This document shows positions 15,624 through 24,337 of a DNA stretch of 64,000 bases, in pieces. Each line of letters starts with the position of its first letter. Within the stretch, counting starts at the first letter, position 1. Source of the stretch: an uncultured Thiomicrospira sp. (GTDB lineage Bacteria; Pseudomonadota; Gammaproteobacteria; CAKMZV01). The notes under the pieces are model-generated. The model was given only the letters and a program-made list of their open reading frames with translations, did no database searches and was not told where the DNA came from. The stretch is taken from NCBI GenBank assembly GCA_965195345.1, contig OZ239628.1:896001-960000 (forward strand), given 5' to 3'. The position numbers and the translations under genes are program-made.

Positions 15624-16574
15624 ATGAATCATCTTGATTTTGAAGCTCCTATAGCAGACCTTGAAGAGAAAATAACTGAGTTGAGCCGTCTTGGCACAGA
15701 GTCTGGGATGGAAATTACTGAGCAGACGTTGAAGCTAAAAGAAGAGAGTCGGAAGTTAACCGAAAAAGTTTTTCGAAATTTGACTGATTGGCAAATAAGC
15801 AAGTTAGCCAGGCATCCGCTACGCCCTTATACTCGGGATTATATAAAATATATTTTCACAGATTTTAATGAATTGCACGGAGACCGTCATTACAAGGATG
15901 ACAGTGCTATTGTTGCAGGAATTGCACGCATTCAAGGTCGTTCAGTAATGGTTATTGGACATGAAAAAGGGCGTTCAACAAATGAAAAGATAAAACAAAA
16001 TTTTGGCATGCCCAGACCCGAAGGTTATCGTAAGGCTTTGCGTTTAATGCAGTTGGCTGAACGGTTTGGCATTCCAGTAATTACATTGATAGATACACCA
16101 GGGGCACATCCAGGCATTGATGCTGAAGAACGCAATCAAAGCGAAGCGATAGCGATTAACTTGCGAGAGATGTCTATGTTACGTATTCCCATTATATGCA
16201 CTGTTATTGGCGAAGGCGGTTCGGGAGGTGCATTGGCTATAGGGGTTGGCGATCATATTATGATGATGGAGTTTGCTGTTTATTCGGTTATTTCACCGGA
16301 AGGATGTGCTTCGATTTTATGGAAAAGTACGGAGAAAGCACCAGAAGCGGCAGAAGCATTAGCTCTGACGGCTCCTAAATTATTAAAACAAAAAATCATT
16401 GATGAAATTGTTCCCGAACCATTGGGAAGCGCTCATCGATCTTATGAAACAGCAGCACTCAATCTACAATCTTCATTGGTACGCGCATTAGATAAGTTTT
16501 GCGCAATGGATGTTGATAAGTTAGTGCATTTGCGTTATGAAAAACTTATGAATTACGGTAACTTTCAGGGTTGA
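15624..16574 (+). CDS. accA: Acetyl-CoA carboxylase carboxyltransferase alpha subunit
   Basis: [20 protein letters not shown] and GEGGSGGAL motifs. Confidence 0.98.
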
Positions 16575-17827
16575 AGAAAAGCGTACCTTCTGATCAGTTA
16601 TTGCTGAATCATTTATTATCATTCTTTAATAGTTGGGACGACATCAGTGCCAATTCGCCTCTTTATGTGGGATTGAGCGGCGGAGTAGATTCAGTCGTTT
16701 TATGTCATGCACTGCACTCAATGCTGTCATTGACCCAACGCTCATTTACTATTGTTCATATTAATCACCAGTTGCAAGATAATGCTGATGAATTCGTTCA
16801 GCAAAGTCAATCGCTTGCGCGAAAACTAAACGTACCGATTGTTGTGGAAGAAGTGCAGGTGGATAGTCAGCCACGCACCAGTATAGAGGCACAAGCGCGG
16901 GCAGTGCGTTATAAGGCATTCACAAAATTGTTGGAACCAAATGCTATGTTGCTATTGGCGCACCATCAGGATGACCAAGCAGAAACGTTTTTACTAAATG
17001 CATTGCGTGGTGCTGATATAAATGCCTTAGGAGGAATGCAAACGTTAAGGAAGCATAAAACTATATGGATTGGGAGACCAATGTTGCAAATAGAACGTAA
17101 AGATATTCTGAACTACGCTAGCATGTTTGATTTGCAATGGTCAGAGGATACGAGTAATACAGACGAAACGATCAAACGTAATTTTTTACGTCATGGAGTG
17201 CTTAAAAAAATCGAAGAGAATTTTCCAGAAAGTTCTAAAATGTTAGCCCGTAGCGCAAGTCGCTTGCAAGTTATCAATGCCCATATACAAGATGAAGCAG
17301 AGGCTTTTTTACAGACACAAACTAATGAATACATTTTGTCATTAGCAGGGTGGAGAGCTTTATCACCTGCGTTAGCTATGGCTGTGTTGAGATTATGGTT
17401 CCAAAAATATAGCGTACCAGCTCAGAGGCAATTGAATGAATTGGTTAGACTTTTCAGAAAAGAAAATGGGCGAGGTGAATTTCGATGGCGTTCAGAGCGA
17501 GGAGAAATCATTTGCTTTGTGTGGCATGATTATGTATTTTTATATTCTCATGAGCAATTGATGGGAACCTCCCCTATAAAGTATTTGCTGAGTGATGGTT
17601 ATGAGGTTCGATGCCGAGTCTCAGGGCAAAGAGTATTATTTAAAGGGCAATCTCGGCAGGTTAAAACGCTTTTGAAACAGATGGGCGTGTTTCCATGGTG
17701 GAGGGATAATTTCCCGATTTTATTTAAAAATGATAGTGCTGTAATGTTGGGAAATTTATGCTTGGATAAATACGAGCATTCAATTAAATTGATTGCTTCA
17801 TCTCCTTATCAATTAGGAGATTTATAA
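16571..17827 (+). CDS. tilS: tRNA(Ile)-lysidine synthase
   Basis: SGGVDS PP-loop, [10 protein letters not shown] and RNFLRH motifs; follows accA. Confidence 0.95.
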
Positions 17828-17866
17828 ATAGAAAAAAGAAAGTGTTTGCGTAAAACAAGTTGAGGG

Positions 17867-18982
17867 TTACTCCACTTGGCTTTCTTTTGGAATGTCTACA
17901 TCAATAGTGTATTCATGTATTAAAATATTATCGTCAGCATACACTTGAGTGGTGAGAGTTCCTTTTGAACTCGCTGGGAAAACATACGCTGTGTAAATAC
18001 GCCAACGATTTCCACGAATCAAAAATTTTTTTTGGTTGATAATTTGATCATTGAACACCCATTGATGGCGAATGCTATGATCTTTGAAATTTCTAATGTT
18101 CGTATAGAAATAAACAATTTCATTATTGTCTATTTTTTCCAATGCTTCACCAGGTACACGGTCAACTACTGAATGTGTAAATAAAGGAGATGTAATTTTT
18201 AATTTTAGATAATCACTAGACAACGAAGACGTTGAGTGACTTTCATTCGAAGTATTCTTCGAAGCGCTCGTTGTATCATTATTGTCTATTATGGTTTCTT
18301 GATTTTGACTCAACAATTCTTTCTTTATTGGTTGAACATCTTTTTTGAATGTGGCACTGGAAGGTTCTTTAATTTTGAGCTCCTGCTCATTCTTTGCCTC
18401 ATGATCGTTGCTTTCTAATGCAGATGCACTTTCTATTTTGGTTGAACTATGGATCACATCTACACTTAGTATTGTTGGGACTGGAATTTTAGTTTCTTGT
18501 TGTTTTTTTTGTAACACAGCATCAAACGATTGATCGCGTGTACTCTTCCTTGCCTGTATGTTTTCTGATAATGCTGGCTTTTCAGGTTTATTTGTTTGAT
18601 CTTTTGAAGTCAATGAAGATGAGGTATTATCATTTGTGTTTGAGGAATCTGGCTTTGACGTTTTAGAAGCGGTAATTGAAAAAATAGGTATATACTTATC
18701 GTCCGTCAAGTTTCGATAGTTGAAATAACCAATGATTGATAAGAGTAAGAGAATCAGTAGTCCCCATAAGATGGACTTACTCGGGTTAGCGTGCGATATG
18801 CCTGCCGATTTGCAACCTGCTTTCCAACCATTTATCCATTTTCTTTTCAATGCTGCAGACGATAGATACCTATGAGAGCAGTATGAAGAGTCCATGCCTG
18901 CATTTCCTTTGTTAAATCCATCCTCATAGGCTGAACGTAATTCTTCAGAAGAATATTTTTTTTGATTACTATCAGTTGTCAT
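17867..18982 (-). CDS. Single-pass membrane protein: N-terminal Rmf-like domain, low-complexity linker, C-terminal DUF2914-like domain
   Basis: AYEDGFNKGNAG..C..WINGWKAG; TM at residues ~71-87; VYFYTNIR...IRHQW...RGNRWRIYT. Confidence 0.65.
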   Translation of the reverse strand: MTTDSNQKKYSSEELRSAYEDGFNKGNAGMDSSYCSHRYLSSAALKRKWINGWKAGCKSAGISHANPSKSILWGLLILLLLSIIGYFNYRNLTDDKYIPIFSITASKTSKPDSSNTNDNTSSSLTSKDQTNKPEKPALSENIQARKSTRDQSFDAVLQKKQQETKIPVPTILSVDVIHSSTKIESASALESNDHEAKNEQELKIKEPSSATFKKDVQPIKKELLSQNQETIIDNNDTTSASKNTSNESHSTSSLSSDYLKLKITSPLFTHSVVDRVPGEALEKIDNNEIVYFYTNIRNFKDHSIRHQWVFNDQIINQKKFLIRGNRWRIYTAYVFPASSKGTLTTQVYADDNILIHEYTIDVDIPKESQVE

Positions 18983-19087
18983 TTAATCTACAGGACTGGA
19001 ATTTTTTTTCTAATCGGTTTTTAATCCAATTAATGGGCATCTGCATTTACTTCTCTTCATTAAAATACATTGTATATCATTCAAAGT

Positions 19088-20008
19088 TTAACGTCCTTCA
19101 CATTGTTTTTTACAACGATTTACGGCAAGCACCGAACTAAAAAAACCGATGAGGATTGCAAAGGAAAAACAGTATAGATAGGCAGCGTTTAAATGCAAAA
19201 TTTGAACGTCACCTGCAGTGGCTGTTACAAGCAAGTTATTAATGACTTCAATGCTCCCCCAACTAATGCCAACGGCACAAAGAGTGCCAATAAATCCAAG
19301 TGAAGTGCCCCAAATTATAAATGGTTGATACAACTGAGTAAGCGTAGCTCCAAGTAATAGATTTATCGCTACTTCGTCGCGTTTTATTTGGATATGTTGA
19401 CTTAAAGCGTGATTTAAAATCAACCAGATAGCCACGATGAATACAGCACTTAGAAACCAGACCAAACGCTCTCCTAAAGTAATTAATTCTTGCACATGTG
19501 ACACCCATTCTTCATTGATATCTACTTCATAAACCATTTCGTCTTCAAGTAGTAATGATTTAAAAGAGAGGATTTGTTGCAAGCTTGATTGAACCGTTGG
19601 ATTAAGGATTATCAGATCGTGCAATGGGTTGTATCCAAGTAATTCAAGGGAGGCTTTTATGTCTTTTTCACCACGATATTCTTTCAATTCCTCAATAGCA
19701 TCGTCGCGTGAGATAAGGACAGGATTATTCTTTATAACACTGCCATAGGTCGCAATCATTGAATTGATGCGCTCCAAAGTTTCGGTACGTTCAGATGCAT
19801 TATTTGTATGTAAAAAGACAGTAATTTGTTTGTGTGCTGTTTGTACTCCGAGCCAATTATTGGAATTAATTAACAATGTAAGCCCAAGCAGGGGTACGCT
19901 AAAACTTGCAGCGATCACCAATATAGTCAGAAAGCTGTTGGAAAAAGTCATTTTCACATCAACCCAAAAGTTATGGTATCCGGTTGGTGTACTGGTTTTA
20001 TATTTCAT
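19088..20008 (-). CDS. ftsX: Cell division permease FtsX
   Basis: 4-TM topology, LGYNPL and LLGAT motifs; follows ftsE. Confidence 0.85.
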   Translation of the reverse strand: MKYKTSTPTGYHNFWVDVKMTFSNSFLTILVIAASFSVPLLGLTLLINSNNWLGVQTAHKQITVFLHTNNASERTETLERINSMIATYGSVIKNNPVLISRDDAIEELKEYRGEKDIKASLELLGYNPLHDLIILNPTVQSSLQQILSFKSLLLEDEMVYEVDINEEWVSHVQELITLGERLVWFLSAVFIVAIWLILNHALSQHIQIKRDEVAINLLLGATLTQLYQPFIIWGTSLGFIGTLCAVGISWGSIEVINNLLVTATAGDVQILHLNAAYLYCFSFAILIGFFSSVLAVNRCKKQCEGR

Positions 20009-20694
20009 TGTACAAAGCCATTTTTCAATTTGATTTCATGAAATGCATGTGATTTTTTGAATCGCTCAACCAGTGCAATTTCATGCGTTGCAATCATAAT
20101 ACAAGTTTTTCGTGTTTGATTGATACTAATCAATAATTGCATGATTTTTTCAGATAAATCGGGATCGAGATTTCCGGTTGGTTCATCGGCTAATATGATT
20201 TTAGGATGACGTACTAACGCTCGTGCCAAACCAATGCGTTGTCGTTGCCCTGCAGACAGCGATAAAGGGTTGTATAGAGCATATTCGCGCATTTTAACTA
20301 ACGATAGTGCAGCTTCTACTTGACTTGAAAATTCACTTTTAGGGACGCCATTTAAATGCAGGGCAAGAGCAATATTATCTTGAACGTTCCGATCATTCAA
20401 AAGCATTGGTTCTTGAAAAACGATGCCCAATTTTTGACGATAGGAAGGAATTTGGTGATTTGAAGTTTTATTCAAACTATTACCAGCGACGTAAATTTCG
20501 CCATTTGTTGGTCGCTCCATTAAAGCTAATAATTTAAATAAAGTGCTTTTGCCTGCTCCTGAGGGTCCCGTTACAAAAGTTAATGAATTTGGTGCGACTC
20601 TGAAAGTAATGTTTTTTAACGCATCATGATGCGTAGGATGCGCGGGGTAACGCTTGGATACGTTGTCAAAATGAATGAAATTTTTATCAGACAT
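20005..20694 (-). CDS. ftsE: Cell division ATP-binding protein FtsE
   Basis: GPSGAGKST, LSAGQRQR and LADEPTGNLD motifs; ftsY-ftsE-ftsX order. Confidence 0.93.
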   Translation of the reverse strand: MSDKNFIHFDNVSKRYPAHPTHHDALKNITFRVAPNSLTFVTGPSGAGKSTLFKLLALMERPTNGEIYVAGNSLNKTSNHQIPSYRQKLGIVFQEPMLLNDRNVQDNIALALHLNGVPKSEFSSQVEAALSLVKMREYALYNPLSLSAGQRQRIGLARALVRHPKIILADEPTGNLDPDLSEKIMQLLISINQTRKTCIMIATHEIALVERFKKSHAFHEIKLKNGFVQ

Positions 20695-20726: not shown

Positions 20727-21623
20727 TTATCCATTGGGGTGTTCCTCTAATAATGCGCTTATGAATTCTTCGGCATTAAATAATTGTAAGTCATCTATTT
20801 TTTCCCCCACACCCAGATAAATGATTGGTAAATCTAGGATGTGAGCAATGCTGAGTAAAGCGCCACCTTTGGCAGTGCCGTCTAACTTACTGGCTATAAC
20901 ACCAGTAATAGGAACGATGTCCTTAAATGCTGCAATTTGTTTAACACCATTTTGCCCACTACCTGCATCAATAACCATCCAAATGTCCGGCTCTATTAAG
21001 GCATCTACTTTGTTTAGAGTGCGGATGATTTTTTCTAACTCGTTCATTAAATGCTTTTGATTATATTGTCTTCCTGCAGTATCTATAATGAGAATGTCGT
21101 AATTCCGAGCTTTCGCCATCTCTAATGCAGTGTAAGCAATAGCTGCAGGATCAGTGGTGTTTTTGTCAATAAATACATCGACATTGCTTTGAGAGCCCCA
21201 GCTAGAAAGTTGTTCATGGGCGGCTGCACGAAAAGTATCGCCACTTGCCAATAAAATCTTTTTCTCAGAAGCAGAGAATTTTTTTGCTAATTTACCAATT
21301 GTGGTTGTTTTTCCAGCGCCATTGACGCCAGCCATTACAATAACGTGCGGGAGAGGATGAGTTTTTTCGTTGTTAGAAGTATGGTTAAACATTGACAGCA
21401 TTACTGTAGAGATTGCTTTGATAGGATCTTCAGTTTTGAGCATGCGCAGTTGTTTAATAATATAATCAGTTGTATCAATGCCAACATCTGCGGATAGGAA
21501 TTGATCTTCAAGTGCGTTTAATGAGTCTTCATCTATTTTTTTTTGTGCAAAAAAAGAATTGAAGTTTAAACGCCTTTTGGTTTTGATTAGAGAATCGTGA
21601 AGAATTTGTTTGAATGACGGCAC
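20727..21623 (-). CDS. ftsY: SRP receptor FtsY (NG domain only; start uncertain)
   Basis: GVNGAGKTTT, DTFRAAA, DTAGR and KLDGTAKGG motifs; GTG 21623 chosen to avoid overlap with the divergent gene. Confidence 0.93.
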   Translation of the reverse strand: MPSFKQILHDSLIKTKRRLNFNSFFAQKKIDEDSLNALEDQFLSADVGIDTTDYIIKQLRMLKTEDPIKAISTVMLSMFNHTSNNEKTHPLPHVIVMAGVNGAGKTTTIGKLAKKFSASEKKILLASGDTFRAAAHEQLSSWGSQSNVDVFIDKNTTDPAAIAYTALEMAKARNYDILIIDTAGRQYNQKHLMNELEKIIRTLNKVDALIEPDIWMVIDAGSGQNGVKQIAAFKDIVPITGVIASKLDGTAKGGALLSIAHILDLPIIYLGVGEKIDDLQLFNAEEFISALLEEHPNG

Positions 21624-21653
21624 AACTAATTTTAAAGAGTGAGTATTAATTAT

Positions 21654-23018
21654 ATGGCTAGATACAGTGAGTATAGCAGTTTGCAAGTGGTTTTGTTCAG
21701 TCTATTAAGCATATTTATGTTGTCAAATTATAACGCTCATGCTGCTGATTCGCCTGTGCATGAAAAAAAACTTGCGAATGGATTCAGAGTGTTTGTAAAG
21801 GTTGATAATCGATCGCCAGTGGTATCTTCACATGTTTGGTATCGAGTTGGTTCAGTCGATGAATATAGTGGGTCTACAGGATTGTCTCATATTCTTGAAC
21901 ATATGATGTTTCGTGGTACAAAAAAACACCCTAAAGATGCATTTTCGAAGATTGTTAATCAATTTGGCGGAGAGCATAACGCATTTACATCTCGAGATTA
22001 CACCGGTTACTATCAAACCATTGGGTCAGAGCATTTAGAAAAGATGCTTGAGTTGGAAGCAGATCGTATGCGTAACGTTATTTTTGAACAAAAAGGCTTT
22101 GAAAAAGAGCGTGATGTAGTTGCAGAGGAACGTCGATATCGTGTTGAAGATAAACCGCTTAATAGACTTAATGAATTATTCTATGCGACTGCTTATGTTA
22201 CCAGTCCATATCATCATCCAATTATCGGATGGATGAAAGACATAGAGGAGACTCAAATTGATGACTTATACCAATGGTATAACCGATTCTACACACCAAA
22301 TAATGCATTATTAGTGGTTGTTGGAAAAGTGAAGCCAAAAGAAGTGTTTGCTATGGCCGAGGCAACATTTGGAAAAATCAAGCCGAATGTCATGAAGCCT
22401 CTTAAGACGCGCCCTGAAATTCCTCAAAAAGGAGAGCGTAGAGTGGTAATGGAAGCTGATGTTGATTTGCATTATGTTTTGATGGGGTATCACGTCCCCA
22501 GTTTGAAAACAGCGACACAAGATCAGTTGAAAGATGTGTATGCGCTTGATGTTTTATCAGGAATTCTTTCAGGCAGCAGTAGCGCACGTTTGCCAAAAGT
22601 GCTGGTACGTCGTGATAAAGTTGCTAGTAAAGCAAGCAGTTATTACAATATGACTTCTTTAAAGAGTGCTTTGTTTATACTGGATGGGATAGCCGCTCAT
22701 CAAGGCAGTACTTTGTCGGTCGAGCAAGCATTGAATGAAGAAATTGATAGACTCAAAACGGAGTTAGTCAAGGTTGAAGAGTTGGAACGAATAAAAACAA
22801 ATATAAAAGCATCTGAAATATTTCAAAAAGATTCAATTTTTTATCAGGCATATGAAATAGCTTTACTTGAAACAATCGGTGTGGGTTGGAAATTAACTGA
22901 TAAGTATTTAAAAAACATCTCCATGGTTACACAAGAAGATTTACAGCGAGTTGCACGTAAATACCTAGTGAAAAATAACCGTACCACAGCTGTGCTTAAC
23001 CCAACGGAGGAACGCTAG
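21654..23018 (+). CDS. M16 family zinc peptidase, catalytic subunit (start uncertain)
   Basis: HILEH inverted HxxEH motif, NAFTSRDYT; signal peptide ending AHA. Confidence 0.93.
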   Translation: MARYSEYSSLQVVLFSLLSIFMLSNYNAHAADSPVHEKKLANGFRVFVKVDNRSPVVSSHVWYRVGSVDEYSGSTGLSHILEHMMFRGTKKHPKDAFSKIVNQFGGEHNAFTSRDYTGYYQTIGSEHLEKMLELEADRMRNVIFEQKGFEKERDVVAEERRYRVEDKPLNRLNELFYATAYVTSPYHHPIIGWMKDIEETQIDDLYQWYNRFYTPNNALLVVVGKVKPKEVFAMAEATFGKIKPNVMKPLKTRPEIPQKGERRVVMEADVDLHYVLMGYHVPSLKTATQDQLKDVYALDVLSGILSGSSSARLPKVLVRRDKVASKASSYYNMTSLKSALFILDGIAAHQGSTLSVEQALNEEIDRLKTELVKVEELERIKTNIKASEIFQKDSIFYQAYEIALLETIGVGWKLTDKYLKNISMVTQEDLQRVARKYLVKNNRTTAVLNPTEER

Positions 23019-24337
23019 TGTTTCAATTTTGCAAGAATATTCTTTTAACTTTTCTTTTTTTCGCACCTGCTTCATTAGTATGGGGGCAAGACGCGTTTCC
23101 AGAACCAGAGTCTTGGGTTAGTGAAAGTGGGACGCAGATTCGTTATCTTTACGCACCTGAATTAGACATAGTTGATATTCAGATTGTTTTTTCAGCGGGT
23201 TCAGCGCGTGATGGAAAAAAGGCAGGTGTTGCTTCCATAACCAATGCGCTTCTTGCTCATGGAAGTAAGGTGTTACCAGAGGAAAAACTGAATCATAGTA
23301 TGGACGGATTGGGAATACATTGGTCGGTAAGAAGTTTACGTGATATGGCAATTTTAACGTTGAGAAGTTTGAATGATGCTGATCATTTGGATAAAGCAAT
23401 AGGACATATTTCTCATATCCTGAGTGAACCACATTTTCCTCAAGAAGGGCTGCAACGGATTATAAATAGTCGTACTGTTGAATTACGCGCGCTTGCCAGT
23501 CGAGCGTCCTATGTTCTCGATAGAGCTTGGTGGCAGAAGCTTTACCCTAATCATCCTTATGCTTCTCCTCCGTATGGAACAATTGAATCCTTGGCAAGTA
23601 TTCAAAGAGATGATCTGGTTTCGTTCCATAAAAAATATTATGTGACTAAAAATATGACCATTGCAATGGTTGGTAACATCAGTAAAGAAAAAGCTCAAGC
23701 TATTGCAAAACGATTGACAAGCAATCTTCCTAAGGGCAAGAAAGCAGCAGAGTTGCCTCAACCTGAAGCATTAAATGCAGCTGAAGAGTTCATCGAAGTT
23801 GATGCAAAGCAAGCGCATATTCGTATGGGTACTTTAGGTGTATCAAGATATGGAAGTTTACGCCACTATACTGCACTGTATCTCGCCAATTATTTGCTTG
23901 GGGGTAATGGACTCGTGTCTGATTTAAGCATTGAAGTACGAGAGAAAAGAGGTCTTGCCTATAGTGTCCATAGTAGCTTTAGACCCATGGCATCACGAGG
24001 TCCTTTCAGTATTTCTTTGCAAACACGCAGTTCTAAAGAAAAAGAGTCCATTCAAGTAGTGAATGATACGTTAAGTAAATTTGTGGATACTATAGACGAA
24101 GAAAGAGTTAATGAAGCTCGTGAAAGCATCCTTGGAAAATTTATTTTAGGTTTAGATAGTAACGCAGAAATGGTTTTATATCTCGGGTTAATGGGGTTCT
24201 ATAACCTTCCAAATAGTTATTTAAATAATTTCATCAAGGAGATTGAAACGCTTGATGCTGAATTCGTACGCGAAACATTCAAGCGCTATCTTGCTAATAA
24301 TTCTTTAGTCTTGGTGAGTGTAGGTAACGGAATCTGA
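23018..24337 (+). CDS. M16 family peptidase, non-catalytic partner subunit
   Basis: AGSARD, HPY and EVREKRGLAY motifs; lacks HxxEH. Confidence 0.9.
   Translation: MFQFCKNILLTFLFFAPASLVWGQDAFPEPESWVSESGTQIRYLYAPELDIVDIQIVFSAGSARDGKKAGVASITNALLAHGSKVLPEEKLNHSMDGLGIHWSVRSLRDMAILTLRSLNDADHLDKAIGHISHILSEPHFPQEGLQRIINSRTVELRALASRASYVLDRAWWQKLYPNHPYASPPYGTIESLASIQRDDLVSFHKKYYVTKNMTIAMVGNISKEKAQAIAKRLTSNLPKGKKAAELPQPEALNAAEEFIEVDAKQAHIRMGTLGVSRYGSLRHYTALYLANYLLGGNGLVSDLSIEVREKRGLAYSVHSSFRPMASRGPFSISLQTRSSKEKESIQVVNDTLSKFVDTIDEERVNEARESILGKFILGLDSNAEMVLYLGLMGFYNLPNSYLNNFIKEIETLDAEFVRETFKRYLANNSLVLVSVGNGI

What the first reader, a model, noticed from the sequence alone, without database searches (positions are those of the whole stretch)
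17867..18982. Membrane-anchored ribosome-modulation-factor-like domain fused to a periplasmic DUF2914-like domain
Seen: residues ~15-56 (LRSAYEDGFNKGNAGMDSSYCSHRY...KRKWINGWKAG) reproduce the Rmf pattern A-x3-G-x3-G-x2-G-x5-C...W-x2-G-W. Then come one TM helix, a long Ser/Thr/Lys-rich linker and a C-terminal beta domain resembling DUF2914. The gene follows ftsY-ftsE-ftsX in the slot rpoH often occupies. Known: Rmf is normally a free ~55-aa ribosome hibernation factor, and the Rmf/CrpP-like fold also occurs in other proteins. Inference: a trans-envelope protein that could tether or silence ribosomes at the membrane, or couple a periplasmic or division signal to translation. Caveat: Rmf's basic N-terminus and the CPY proline are missing.
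Basis: partly seen in the sequence, partly recalled or inferred. Interest (0 to 1): 0.78.

Follow-up and report, generated by a model that had tools for sequence, protein, structure and literature searches.

The report
Membrane-anchored RMF-fold protein after ftsX
A rare inner-membrane protein of an uncultured gammaproteobacterial lineage carries on its cytoplasmic end a diverged copy of the ribosome-hibernation factor RMF that has lost RMF's RNA-gripping basic residues, so it looks like a re-used fold in an envelope-spanning protein rather than a membrane-bound ribosome silencer.

Summary
Window 17867-18982 (-) encodes a 371-aa protein with four parts: an RMF-like N-domain, one TM helix, a 168-aa disordered polar linker and a C-terminal DUF2914 beta-sandwich. 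It is the last gene after ftsY-ftsE-ftsX.

RMF homology is real. A profile of 8 N-domains hits E. coli RMF in the PDB at E=3.7e-8. RMF is the top structural match by two aligners.

The architecture is conserved in 5 of 5 genomes of the order and in one genome of another family. All 14 of 14 longer proteins with this N-domain also carry DUF2914. The N-domain is the most constrained part (dN/dS 0.09).

The fold core is kept, but the basic residues that bind 16S rRNA in RMF (R3, K5, R8, R11, R15) are K/R in only 0-1 of 13 fused sequences. R15 is D/E in 12 of 13 (papers). Canonical RMF action is therefore unlikely.

Best reading (0.42): an envelope-spanning adaptor linked to the ftsYEX operon, whose RMF-fold head binds a protein. 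Ribosome docking remains a rival (0.2). No function was tested.

The parts
17867..18982 (-). Whole ORF, 371 aa (P0001): RMF-fold head, TM helix, disordered linker, DUF2914 domain
18803..18952 (-). Residues 11-60: cytoplasmic RMF-homologous two-helix domain (H12-27, short H37-40, H43-59)
   Evidence: Pfam RMF 20.8 bits alone. Profile against PDB RMF E=3.7e-8. AF2 pLDDT 94-97. RMF is the top structural hit. dN/dS 0.09 in G001 versus G002.
18704..18784 (-). Residues 67-93: single transmembrane helix, N-in orientation inferred
   Evidence: AF2 helix 67-93. Hydrophobic run 71-87 present in 8 of 8 family representatives, with a net-positive N-side.
18218..18703 (-). Residues 94-255: disordered Ser/Thr/Asn/Lys/Glu-rich periplasmic spacer, variable in length (65-168 aa) among relatives
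   Evidence: pLDDT below 50 over 104-251. Composition and lengths. Unalignable in A7. dN/dS 0.56.
17888..18217 (-). Residues 256-365: DUF2914 Ig-like/macroglobulin-like beta-sandwich
   Evidence: Pfam PF11141 28 bits, over the cut-off. 501 phmmer hits, mostly DUF2914 proteins. AF2 strands 262-363, pLDDT 94-97. Generic beta-sandwich matches. Invariant P277, H306, W308, W327, R328 in 65 sequences.
19088..20008 (-). ftsX, immediately upstream on the same strand with a 105-nt gap
   Evidence: best family FtsX_Gneg, 126 bits, below the equivalog cut-off
20005..20694 (-). ftsE
   Evidence: best family FtsE, 232.6 bits, below the cut-off of 264.85
20727..21686 (-). ftsY, first gene of the cluster
   Evidence: TIGR00064 290.6 bits, over the cut-off

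Best explanation
The gene encodes a bitopic inner-membrane protein.

Shown:
- A roughly 50-residue two-helix domain homologous to ribosome modulation factor sits at the N-terminus.
- It is followed within about 7 residues by a single TM helix.
- Then comes a 65-168-residue disordered polar spacer.
- The C-terminus is a DUF2914 beta-sandwich.
- The combination is fixed in a small lineage-restricted family, and the RMF-fold head is its most constrained part.

Inferred:
- Topology is N-in, so the RMF-fold head lies against the cytoplasmic face of the membrane. The DUF2914 domain is held on a flexible stalk in the periplasm.
- The head keeps RMF's fold-forming residues but has replaced the rRNA-binding basic face of helix a1 by an acidic one. 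It therefore most likely no longer acts as RMF. It more likely serves as a small protein-binding module.
- The gene sits at the 3' end of ftsY-ftsE-ftsX in most lineages. The most likely role is therefore an envelope-spanning adaptor or tether connected with FtsEX, cell division or envelope function.
- In that role the periplasmic Ig-like domain would bind an envelope component such as a glycan, peptidoglycan or a protein. The cytoplasmic head would engage a protein partner.
- The partner and the ligand are unknown.
For: Architecture.

RMF homology.

Loss of the RMF functional face:
- 8 of 8 canonical RMFs taken from genomes have 5-7 K/R and 0-2 D/E in the 15 residues before G16.
- 9 of 9 fused N-domains have 0-3 K/R and 3-7 D/E in that segment.
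- At RMF positions R3, K5, R8, R11 and R15 the fused set has K/R in 1, 0, 1, 1 and 0 of 13, and D/E at R15 in 12 of 13.
- Core residues are kept: G16 13/13, G23 12/13, W40, G43 and W44 13/13.
- Some of the 13 sequences are near-duplicates.
- The roles of these residues come from passages of 10.1101/382572 and the Results and Discussion of PMC8126665.

The head is functional, not a relic. dN/dS between G001 and G002 is 0.09 for the head, 0.11 for the TM, 0.56 for the linker and 0.31 for DUF2914 (one pair only).

Fixed combination: 14 of 14 longer proteins with this N-domain carry PF11141. It is present in 5 of 5 genomes of the order and in G081 of another family.

Extracytoplasmic DUF2914: 79 of 142 other DUF2914 hits begin with a hydrophobic signal or anchor-like stretch. 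The partner domains seen are pilin and OmpA.

Linkage to ftsX:
- The gene lies directly downstream of ftsX on the same strand in G000, G001, G002, G004 and G081. That is 3 of the 4 genera where context is known.
- Gaps are 105 nt, about 139 nt and 45 nt, and there is a 14-nt overlap in G081.
- No minus-strand terminator-like site lies between ftsX and the gene.
- The gene stayed with ftsX in G000, where rpoH lies about 770 kb away.

Non-basic RMF-like domains occur in other, non-ribosomal contexts. One sits at the C-terminus of an AcrB-family transporter at 29.4 bits, over the cut-off.
Against: - No partner or ligand was identified, and nothing functional was measured.
- Adjacency to ftsX is absent in G003, where the gene follows zapE. 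Being last in an operon can be a neutral syntenic relic.
- Helix a2 keeps basic residues at the RMF R37 position (K/R in 7 of 13) and the R45 position (10 of 13). R45 contacts the anti-SD region in E. coli (PMC8126665 Discussion). Some rRNA contact therefore cannot be excluded.
- This ORF is the only RMF-like sequence in the genome. All six genomes with the fusion keep one short HPF. Both facts fit a ribosome-related role as well.
- The beta-sandwich matches are generic, with Z about 8-10.6 to many unrelated Ig-like or MG domains. They do not point to a ligand.
Confidence: 0.42

Rival explanations
1. Membrane-tethered ribosome factor. The RMF-derived head still docks on the 30S subunit near the anti-Shine-Dalgarno region, using helix a2 and the inter-helix loop rather than helix a1. 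It would hold or silence ribosomes at the inner membrane, possibly under control of the periplasmic domain. It would stand in for free RMF beside the short HPF.
For: - Homology and fold identity with RMF.
- It is the only RMF-like sequence in G000 and in the four other genomes of the order.
- One short HPF (open frames of 99-125 aa) is present in all 6 genomes that carry the fusion.
- Residues whose alanine mutants lose ribosome binding in E. coli (G16, W40, W44) are invariant, and C29 is kept in 8 of 13 (PMC8126665).
- The R45 equivalent is K/R in 10 of 13.
- Canonical RMFs from genomes carry C-terminal extensions after helix a2, so a C-terminal continuation is tolerated.
- There is a precedent for membrane-anchored hibernation factors: YqjD/ElaB/YgaM (abstract of 10.1101/2024.08.16.608256).
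Against: - The five basic residues that contact 16S rRNA are almost entirely lost, and helix a1 is acidic.
- In E. coli, single R3A, K5A or R11A changes abolish 100S formation, and deleting the first 5 residues abolishes binding.
- G16, W40 and W44 are fold-core residues. Their conservation shows the fold, not the function.
- The inter-helix loop, which in RMF helps hold the 16S 3' end, carries a 3-residue insertion.
- Only about 7 residues separate helix a2 from the TM helix, whereas RMF sits in a cavity ringed by S2, S7, S9 and S21 under S1. A steric problem is my inference and was not computed.
- RMF is uncommon in the class sample anyway, with 16 of 400 genomes over the cut-off. Its absence here says little.
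- Acidic RMF-like domains exist in clearly non-ribosomal proteins.
Confidence: 0.2
2. Anti-sigma-like, single-pass signalling protein. The small cytoplasmic head would sequester a regulator, for instance sigma-32. The periplasmic DUF2914 domain would sense an envelope signal that releases it.
For: - The architecture of a small N-terminal cytoplasmic helical domain, one TM, an extracytoplasmic stalk and a sensor-like beta domain is that of single-pass anti-sigma factors. This is established knowledge, recalled.
- In G081 the gene lies between ftsX and rpoH. It overlaps ftsX by 14 nt and the rpoH start by 4 nt.
- The sensor domain of anti-sigma factor RsgI4 is among the beta-sandwich matches at Z 8.9. 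That match is generic.
Against: - No anti-sigma domain family appears for the protein in Pfam or NCBIfam even at E up to 10.
- rpoH is unlinked in G000, about 770 kb away.
- rpoH is not next to the gene in G001, G002, G004 or G003.
- ftsX-rpoH adjacency is an ancestral gammaproteobacterial arrangement (recalled). The G081 position may simply reflect an insertion site.
Confidence: 0.1
3. The RMF likeness is convergent or by chance, and the N-terminal segment is only a cytoplasmic cap of a DUF2914 membrane protein.
For: The single-sequence Pfam and NCBIfam scores are below the curated cut-offs. The domain is small, and the structural E-values and Z are modest.
Against: - The profile-to-PDB match at E=3.7e-8 covers the full RMF length.
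- 8 of 8 members hit Pfam RMF.
- RMF ranks first by two independent structure aligners.
- The spacing of the G and W core residues is identical.
- The head is the most strongly constrained part of the protein.
Confidence: 0.03

Closest known systems
Ribosome modulation factor RMF (Pfam PF04957; PDB 6H4N chain v, 4V8G, 2JRM)
   Same: Same two-helix fold, and a significant profile match over the whole RMF length. Core residues G16, G23, W40, G43 and W44 are kept. C29 and P30 are kept in 8 and 9 of 13. The R45 equivalent is mostly K/R.
   Different: - Not a free protein of about 55 aa. It is the N-terminal head of a 249-427-aa membrane protein.
- The basic N-terminal extension and the basic face of helix a1 are replaced by acidic or neutral residues.
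- The inter-helix loop carries a 3-residue insertion.
- The window protein scores below the Pfam cut-off.
DUF2914 proteins (Pfam PF11141)
   Same: The C-terminal domain scores above the Pfam cut-off and shares the invariant P, H-x-W and W-R residues. Like most relatives, it is predicted to be extracytoplasmic.
   Different: Most relatives are one or two DUF2914 domains behind a signal peptide or anchor. A few carry ankyrin, pilin or OmpA domains. Of the 150 best hits, 9 including the query carry the RMF-like head. No paper on the function of DUF2914 was found (listing only).
YqjD/ElaB/YgaM (DUF883) membrane-anchored ribosome hibernation factors
   Same: Concept only: a cytoplasmic ribosome-binding part held at the inner membrane by a single TM helix (abstract of 10.1101/2024.08.16.608256).
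   Different: - No sequence relation.
- Those are C-tail-anchored with no periplasmic domain, and they bind the 50S tunnel exit.
- No DUF883 match in this genome.
- Ribosome binding by the present protein is not shown and is disfavoured.
Single-pass anti-sigma factors (e.g. RsgI, RseA type)
   Same: Overall layout: a small cytoplasmic N-domain, one TM, and an extracytoplasmic stalk with a sensor domain (recalled). There is a generic beta-sandwich likeness to the RsgI4 sensor at Z 8.9.
   Different: No anti-sigma domain family was detected. No cognate sigma gene is adjacent except rpoH in one genome.
Other non-basic RMF-like (Rmf/CrpP-type) domains
   Same: These are acidic or neutral RMF-fold domains that match PF04957 from about profile position 7-14 onwards and lack the basic N-terminus:
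- an AcrB-family transporter C-terminus (29.4 bits);
- a 413-aa protein C-terminus (33 bits);
- 120-140-aa acidic proteins;
- a free protein of about 53 aa (46.6 bits).
Sources.
   Different: Different partners and contexts. None of them has DUF2914. The CrpP relationship itself is recalled from memory and was not tested here.

Membership tests
RMF (functional ribosome modulation factor) | Free cytoplasmic protein of about 55-70 aa | tested here: not met
   The domain is the N-terminus of a 371-aa ORF with a TM helix. Orthologues are 249-427 aa.
RMF (functional ribosome modulation factor) | Two-helix RMF fold with core G16, G23, W40, G43, W44 | tested here: met
   Core residues conserved in 12-13 of 13.
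RMF (functional ribosome modulation factor) | Score above the Pfam PF04957 gathering cut-off (27.9 bits) | tested here: not met
   20.8 bits for the whole protein and 25.4 bits for residues 1-62. Some relatives carry a precomputed PF04957 label, 5 of 14 clusters.
RMF (functional ribosome modulation factor) | Conserved basic residues R3, K5, R11 (plus R8, R15) that bind 16S rRNA and are needed for 100S formation | tested here: not met
   K/R in 1, 0, 1 (and 1, 0) of 13 fused sequences. The R15 position is D/E in 12 of 13. Residue roles.
RMF (functional ribosome modulation factor) | Conserved C29-P30 in the inter-helix loop and R45 in helix a2 | tested here: inconclusive
   In the window protein these are C35, S36 (Pro lost) and K54. 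Across the family, C is kept in 8/13, P in 9/13 and K/R in 10/13.
RMF (functional ribosome modulation factor) | Binds 30S and induces 70S dimerisation with short HPF | not testable with these tools
   Needs sucrose-gradient and binding assays. A short HPF gene is present.
DUF2914 (PF11141) | Score above the Pfam gathering cut-off (23.6 bits) | tested here: met
   28 bits by hmmscan and 31.4 bits in the genome scan.
DUF2914 (PF11141) | Family-invariant residues in the beta-sandwich | tested here: met
   P277, H306, W308, W327 and R328 are invariant in an alignment of 65 sequences.
YqjD/ElaB/YgaM (DUF883) | DUF883 domain with a C-terminal tail anchor | tested here: not met
   No PF05957 match in the genome at E<=0.01. 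The TM helix here lies in the first quarter of the chain (residues 67-93 of 371) and is followed by about 280 extracytoplasmic residues, not at the C-terminus.
Single-pass anti-sigma factor | Recognisable anti-sigma domain and an adjacent cognate sigma gene | tested here: inconclusive
   No anti-sigma family in Pfam or NCBIfam at E<=10. rpoH is adjacent only in G081 and is 770 kb away in G000. Divergent anti-sigma domains can escape profiles.

The most novel reading that the evidence does not exclude
A membrane-tethered derivative of RMF that still docks the small ribosomal subunit at the inner membrane. It would bind through helix a2 and the enlarged inter-helix loop near the anti-Shine-Dalgarno end of 16S rRNA. 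The docking would be under the control of a periplasmic DUF2914 sensor on a long stalk. It would replace free RMF as the partner of short HPF in a host-associated-looking, small-genome gammaproteobacterial lineage. That would be a direct trans-envelope switch on translation.
Probability: 0.17. Interest if true: 0.8.

Novelty: new variant of a known kind. Interest (0 to 1): 0.45.

Why it matters
RMF is regarded as a small free factor whose only known job is to prepare 70S ribosomes for 100S dimerisation. Here the RMF fold forms the strongly constrained cytoplasmic head of an envelope-spanning protein. It is one of several non-basic RMF-like domains found in other proteins.

This matters for annotation. 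An RMF Pfam hit lacking the basic N-terminus should not be read as a hibernation factor. It also gives a defined, testable case of exaptation of a ribosome-binding fold.

If the minority reading is right, this would be the first RMF-type factor anchored in the membrane and wired to the periplasm. It would also give DUF2914, a family of hundreds of uncharacterised exported domains, a first functional context.

Tried and rejected
- Near-length homologue search: found only the query itself. The family was recovered by genome searches and the representative library instead.
- Complex prediction with FtsE + FtsX + residues 1-100 of the protein: verdict 'no answer', score 0.00 against a mark of 0.32. 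It counts neither for nor against binding.
- The look-up of sequencing runs: no RNA holder listed, and 4 rows of one study hold the DNA. I therefore did not use read laying. This says nothing about expression.
- ESM Atlas with residues 1-66: no usable hit.
- Promoter and terminator scan of 17700-19300: 7 promoter-like sites against 6.0 +/- 2.5 expected, and 1 terminator-like site against 1.0 +/- 1.0. That is no more than chance, so it is used only to note that no minus-strand terminator-like site lies between ftsX and the gene.
- Fold searches of the C-domain: only generic Ig-like, MG, RhoGDI, CARDB and Wzt-CBD sandwiches, with Foldseek TM by target at most 0.54 and VIA Z at most 10.6 spread over many unrelated families. 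I rejected naming a ligand from them.
- I considered that the protein replaces EnvC as the FtsX partner. I rejected this as unsupported, because G000 has four M23-peptidase matches.
- I considered that RND-RMF fusions show a general rule of RMF domains on membrane proteins. Only 2 clusters were found, so the fusion is sporadic.
- Literature: no paper on this architecture turned up in the following searches, of which I saw listings only.
  - 'DUF2914': 3 papers, 2 listed, unrelated.
  - 'ribosome modulation factor' + 'CrpP': 2 papers.
  - 'ribosome modulation factor' / 'transmembrane' / 'RMF domain', at least 2 of 3 terms: 43 papers, and none of the 15 listed holds 'RMF domain'.
  - 'CrpP' / 'structure' / 'Rmf'.
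The 50-species RMF alignment of PMC8126665 (its Supplementary Figure 1) was not seen. I relied on the residues named in its main text and on 8 canonical RMFs taken from genomes.
Full report
**1. What is there**

Window 17867-18982 (minus strand) is a 371-aa ORF with an ATG start and a stop directly upstream of it. It is the fourth gene in a same-strand row:
- ftsY, 20727-21686
- ftsE, 20005-20694
- ftsX, 19088-20008
- this gene

The convergent tilS (16571-17827, plus strand) follows it. Names were checked against NCBIfam. FtsY and TilS_N score over their cut-offs. FtsE and FtsX are the best hits for their ORFs but fall below the equivalog cut-offs.

The gap between ftsX and the gene is 105 nt. 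It holds no minus-strand terminator-like site, and promoter-like sites are no more frequent than in shuffles. No clear Shine-Dalgarno motif precedes the ATG (read).

**2. Domain anatomy**

- Pfam gives DUF2914 at residues 302-357, with 28 bits against a cut-off of 23.6.
- Pfam gives RMF at residues 11-57, with 20.8 bits against a cut-off of 27.9 and E=4.2e-4.
- NCBIfam RMF gives 19.5 bits against a cut-off of 40.

An AlphaFold2 model built on 65 aligned sequences shows the following:
- helices 12-27, 37-40 and 43-59, at pLDDT 94-97;
- a long helix 67-93, whose hydrophobic core is 71-87;
- disorder over 104-251;
- a seven-strand sandwich at 262-363, at pLDDT 94-97.

The linker is 168 aa and 72% S/T/N/Q/P/E/D/K. 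In relatives it varies from 65 to 168 aa.

**3. Is the RMF likeness real?**

Yes.
- A profile of eight orthologous N-domains (alignment A2) finds E. coli RMF chains at E=3.7e-8 and 5e-8, and Vibrio RMF at 4e-3, among 177,635 PDB sequences. The alignment runs over RMF residues 1-46. The next hit is at E=0.34.
- 8 of 8 N-domains match Pfam RMF, best E=3.6e-9.
- The model of residues 1-62 has pLDDT 87.8.
- Its three best Foldseek PDB hits are all RMF: 9iot_y, 6h4n_v and 2jrm. TM by target is 0.77, 0.73 and 0.61. The E-values are weak at 0.16-0.73, as expected for 55 residues.
- By VIA-align against 48,161 representative chains, RMF is rank 1 (4v8g_AV, Z 6.4, rmsd 2.1 A, 50 of 53 residues). The runner-up has Z 5.7 at rmsd 4.9 A.

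**4. Distribution**

- The genome (G000) is 1.92 Mb in one contig and 99.7% complete. Its only RMF-like match and its only DUF2914 match are both in this ORF.
- All 5 of 5 genomes held for the order (one family, three genera) have the same protein, 306-419 aa, with N-domain scores of 85-95 bits against the A2 profile.
- The four relatives recovered with record titles are uncultured Gammaproteobacteria MAGs.
- In a class-wide sample, 300 genomes were scored and 8 matched. One genome of another family, G081 (1.1 Mb, 84% complete), has a 257-aa version at 75 bits. The remaining non-family matches are canonical RMFs in open frames of 59-129 aa.
- phmmer against 1.84 billion representatives gives 501 hits at E<=1e-3. 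Of the 150 listed, 9 including the query carry the RMF-like head plus TM plus DUF2914. The rest are DUF2914-only proteins.
- Searching the 5.8-billion-protein set with the N-domain profile for longer proteins gives 14 clusters. All 14 carry PF11141, and each cluster has 1-3 member sequences.

The domain combination is therefore a single, rare, lineage-restricted family.

**5. Topology**

- All 8 of 8 representatives examined have one hydrophobic helix right after the head. The N-side net charge is 0 to +5, and the 15 residues after the helix have a net charge of -2 to +1.
- Of 142 other DUF2914 hits, 79 begin with a signal or anchor-like hydrophobic stretch.
- Of the 86 longer hits scanned, 2 carry pilin and 1 carries OmpA.

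From this I infer an N-in orientation: head in the cytoplasm, and linker and DUF2914 in the periplasm. This is inference from the positive-inside rule and from relatives, not a measurement.

**6. Does the head still look like a working RMF?**

No. The relevant published findings are these:
- Passages of Beckert et al. (10.1101/382572) state that helix a1 of RMF inserts into a cleft between 16S helices h28 and h37/h40.
- The same passages state that the conserved residues Arg3, Lys5, Arg8, Arg11 and Arg15 hydrogen-bond the rRNA backbone.
- They also state that the N-terminal extension intertwines with S7, and that helix a2 and the linker hold the 3' end with the anti-SD.
- The Results and Discussion of Yoshida et al. 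(PMC8126665) report that single alanine changes at R3, K5, R11, G23, P30, G43 or R45 abolish 100S formation.
- They further report that G16A, C29A, W40A, W44A, removal of the first 5 residues, or removal of the last 10 residues abolish ribosome binding.

I aligned 8 canonical RMFs taken from genomes with the fused N-domains.
- In the 15 residues before G16, canonical RMFs have 5-7 K/R and 0-2 D/E (8 of 8).
- In the same segment, fused heads have 0-3 K/R and 3-7 D/E (9 of 9).

| RMF position | Fused set (n = 13) |
|---|---|
| R3 | K/R in 1 |
| K5 | K/R in 0 |
| R8 | K/R in 1; D/E in 8 |
| R11 | K/R in 1 |
| R15 | K/R in 0; D/E in 12 |
| G16 | kept in 13 |
| G23 | kept in 12 |
| W40, G43, W44 | kept in 13 |
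| C29 | kept in 8 |
| P30 | kept in 9 |
| R37 | K/R in 7 |
| R45 | K/R in 10 |

The 13 sequences include near-duplicates, so they count lineages loosely. The fused heads also have three extra residues in the inter-helix loop.

What is kept is what makes the fold. What is lost is the rRNA-binding face. In the window protein the mapping is:
- R3 to K9
- K5 to S11
- R8 to E14
- R11 to S17
- R15 to D21
- C29 to C35
- P30 to S36
- R45 to K54

**7. The head is nevertheless functional**

Between the two congeneric genomes G001 and G002, dN/dS by region is as follows (one pair, small counts):

| Region | dN/dS | Identical residues |
|---|---|---|
| RMF-fold head | 0.09 | 68 of 70 |
| TM helix | 0.11 | 23 of 25 |
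| Linker | 0.56 | 105 of 123 |
| DUF2914 | 0.31 | 99 of 109 |

In the family alignment, the invariant columns outside DUF2914 are M1 and the head residues G22, W49, G52 and W53. G26, A28, G29 and G56 are nearly invariant.

**8. RMF-like domains elsewhere**

A scan of 400 class genomes with PF04957 gave 30 genomes with a match, 16 of them over the cut-off. Besides canonical small basic RMFs there are:
- a free acidic form of about 53 aa (46.6 bits);
- an AcrB-family transporter with an RMF domain at its cytoplasmic C-terminus (29.4 bits, over the cut-off; only 2 clusters known);
- a 413-aa protein with a C-terminal RMF-like domain (33 bits);
- a group of acidic 120-140-aa proteins.

All of these match the profile from about position 7-14 onwards, so they lack the basic N-terminus. 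The RMF fold is therefore used outside ribosome hibernation, which lowers the weight of homology as evidence of function.

**9. Context**

The gene directly follows ftsX in the following genomes:
- G000, with a 105-nt gap;
- G001 and G002, with a gap of about 139 nt;
- G004, with a 45-nt gap;
- G081, where it overlaps ftsX by 14 nt and is followed, with a 4-nt overlap, by rpoH.

In G003 it follows zapE instead. An M23 amidase-activator-like gene lies four genes further upstream.

In G000, rpoH is about 770 kb away, so the gene stayed with ftsX rather than with rpoH. G000 has four M23 peptidase matches, one short HPF and no DUF883 (YqjD/ElaB) match. All five other genomes with the fusion also have one short HPF, in open frames of 99-125 aa.

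**10. The C-domain**

Foldseek and VIA-align return many unrelated Ig-like or macroglobulin-type sandwiches:
- TEP1 and complement MG domains, Z 10.4-10.6;
- glycosidase accessory domains;
- the Wzt carbohydrate-binding domain;
- RhoGDI and CARDB;
- the RsgI4 sensor domain, Z 8.9.

The fold is a generic binding module and no ligand can be named. The residues invariant across 65 DUF2914 sequences (P277, H306, W308, W327, R328) would suit a conserved binding site. That is inference.

**11. Reading**

The best-supported explanation (0.42) is an envelope-spanning adaptor co-expressed with FtsYEX. Its RMF-fold head has been re-used as a protein-binding module. Its DUF2914 domain, on a flexible stalk, binds an envelope component.

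The rivals are these:
- The ribosome-docking reading keeps 0.2. Homology, the retained basic residues of helix a2, the absence of free RMF and the presence of short HPF all fit it. The loss of the whole basic face argues against it. So does the very short tether of about 7 residues to the membrane, given that RMF sits in a cavity under S1. The steric argument is mine and was not computed.
- An anti-sigma-like regulator keeps 0.1.
- Chance likeness keeps 0.03.
- The remainder is unassigned.

**12. Novelty**

No paper on this architecture or on DUF2914 function was found in the searches, of which I saw listings only. Automatic Pfam labels (PF11141 plus PF04957) already sit on some relatives. It is a new variant of a known kind: an RMF-superfamily domain in a new, membrane-anchored context with a changed functional surface. 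Interest is moderate at 0.45. It would be high only if ribosome binding were shown.

Noticed in passing
L068 167-3448 (-) (G313:C12); also L046: A 1093-aa AcrB/AcrD/AcrF-family RND transporter ends in an acidic RMF-like domain (PF04957 29.4 bits, over the cut-off, with a CPF loop motif). Only 2 clusters with this C-terminus were found among 5.8 billion proteins.
   Followed up: partly
L045 1495-2733 (-) (G216:C31): A 413-aa protein with no other Pfam domain carries a very acidic RMF-like domain at its C-terminus (PF04957 33 bits, residues 376-410).
   Followed up: partly
L051, L056, L059, L060, L061 (five genomes of the class sample): A group of acidic 120-140-aa proteins holds an internal RMF-like core (E-G-Y ... 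N-P-Y ... W-x-x-G-W-W) that matches PF04957 from about profile position 13. L051 scores 26.7 bits. Function unknown.
   Followed up: partly
L021 (G036:C24:28909-29052, -): A free protein of about 53 aa scores 46.6 bits on Pfam RMF but lacks the basic N-terminus (1 K/R and 3 D/E before the first Gly). An RMF annotation for such proteins may be functionally wrong.
   Followed up: partly
L033 886-2539 (G081:C96): In a 1.1-Mb genome the order is ftsE-ftsX-[RMF-TM-DUF2914 gene]-rpoH. There is a 14-nt overlap with ftsX and a 4-nt overlap (GTG start over the stop) with rpoH, which suggests one tightly packed transcription unit.
   Followed up: partly
window 20727-21686 (-): The FtsY ORF is short: 319 aa from the first possible start. 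Orthologues are 294-296 aa, and they align from residue 18 (G001, G002) or 27 (G004) of the window ORF. It therefore consists essentially of the NG core without a long N-terminal acidic domain. The comparison with the roughly 500-aa E. coli FtsY is recalled.
   Followed up: no
L019 1607-5810 (G003:C39): In the one genus where the gene is not next to ftsX, it follows zapE (NCBIfam ZapE 249.5 bits). A coiled-coil M23 amidase-activator-like gene lies four genes further upstream. These are other cell-division-related neighbours, which may be coincidence.
   Followed up: partly
window 15624-17827 (+) and 21639-24337 (+): An ORF that looks like accA (named by eye, not checked) and tilS overlap by 4 nt (16571-16574). 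Divergent from ftsY lie two adjacent ORFs of 459 and 439 aa (21639-23018 and 23018-24337) that look like a pair of M16-type zinc peptidases. That name is also by eye and was not checked.
   Followed up: no
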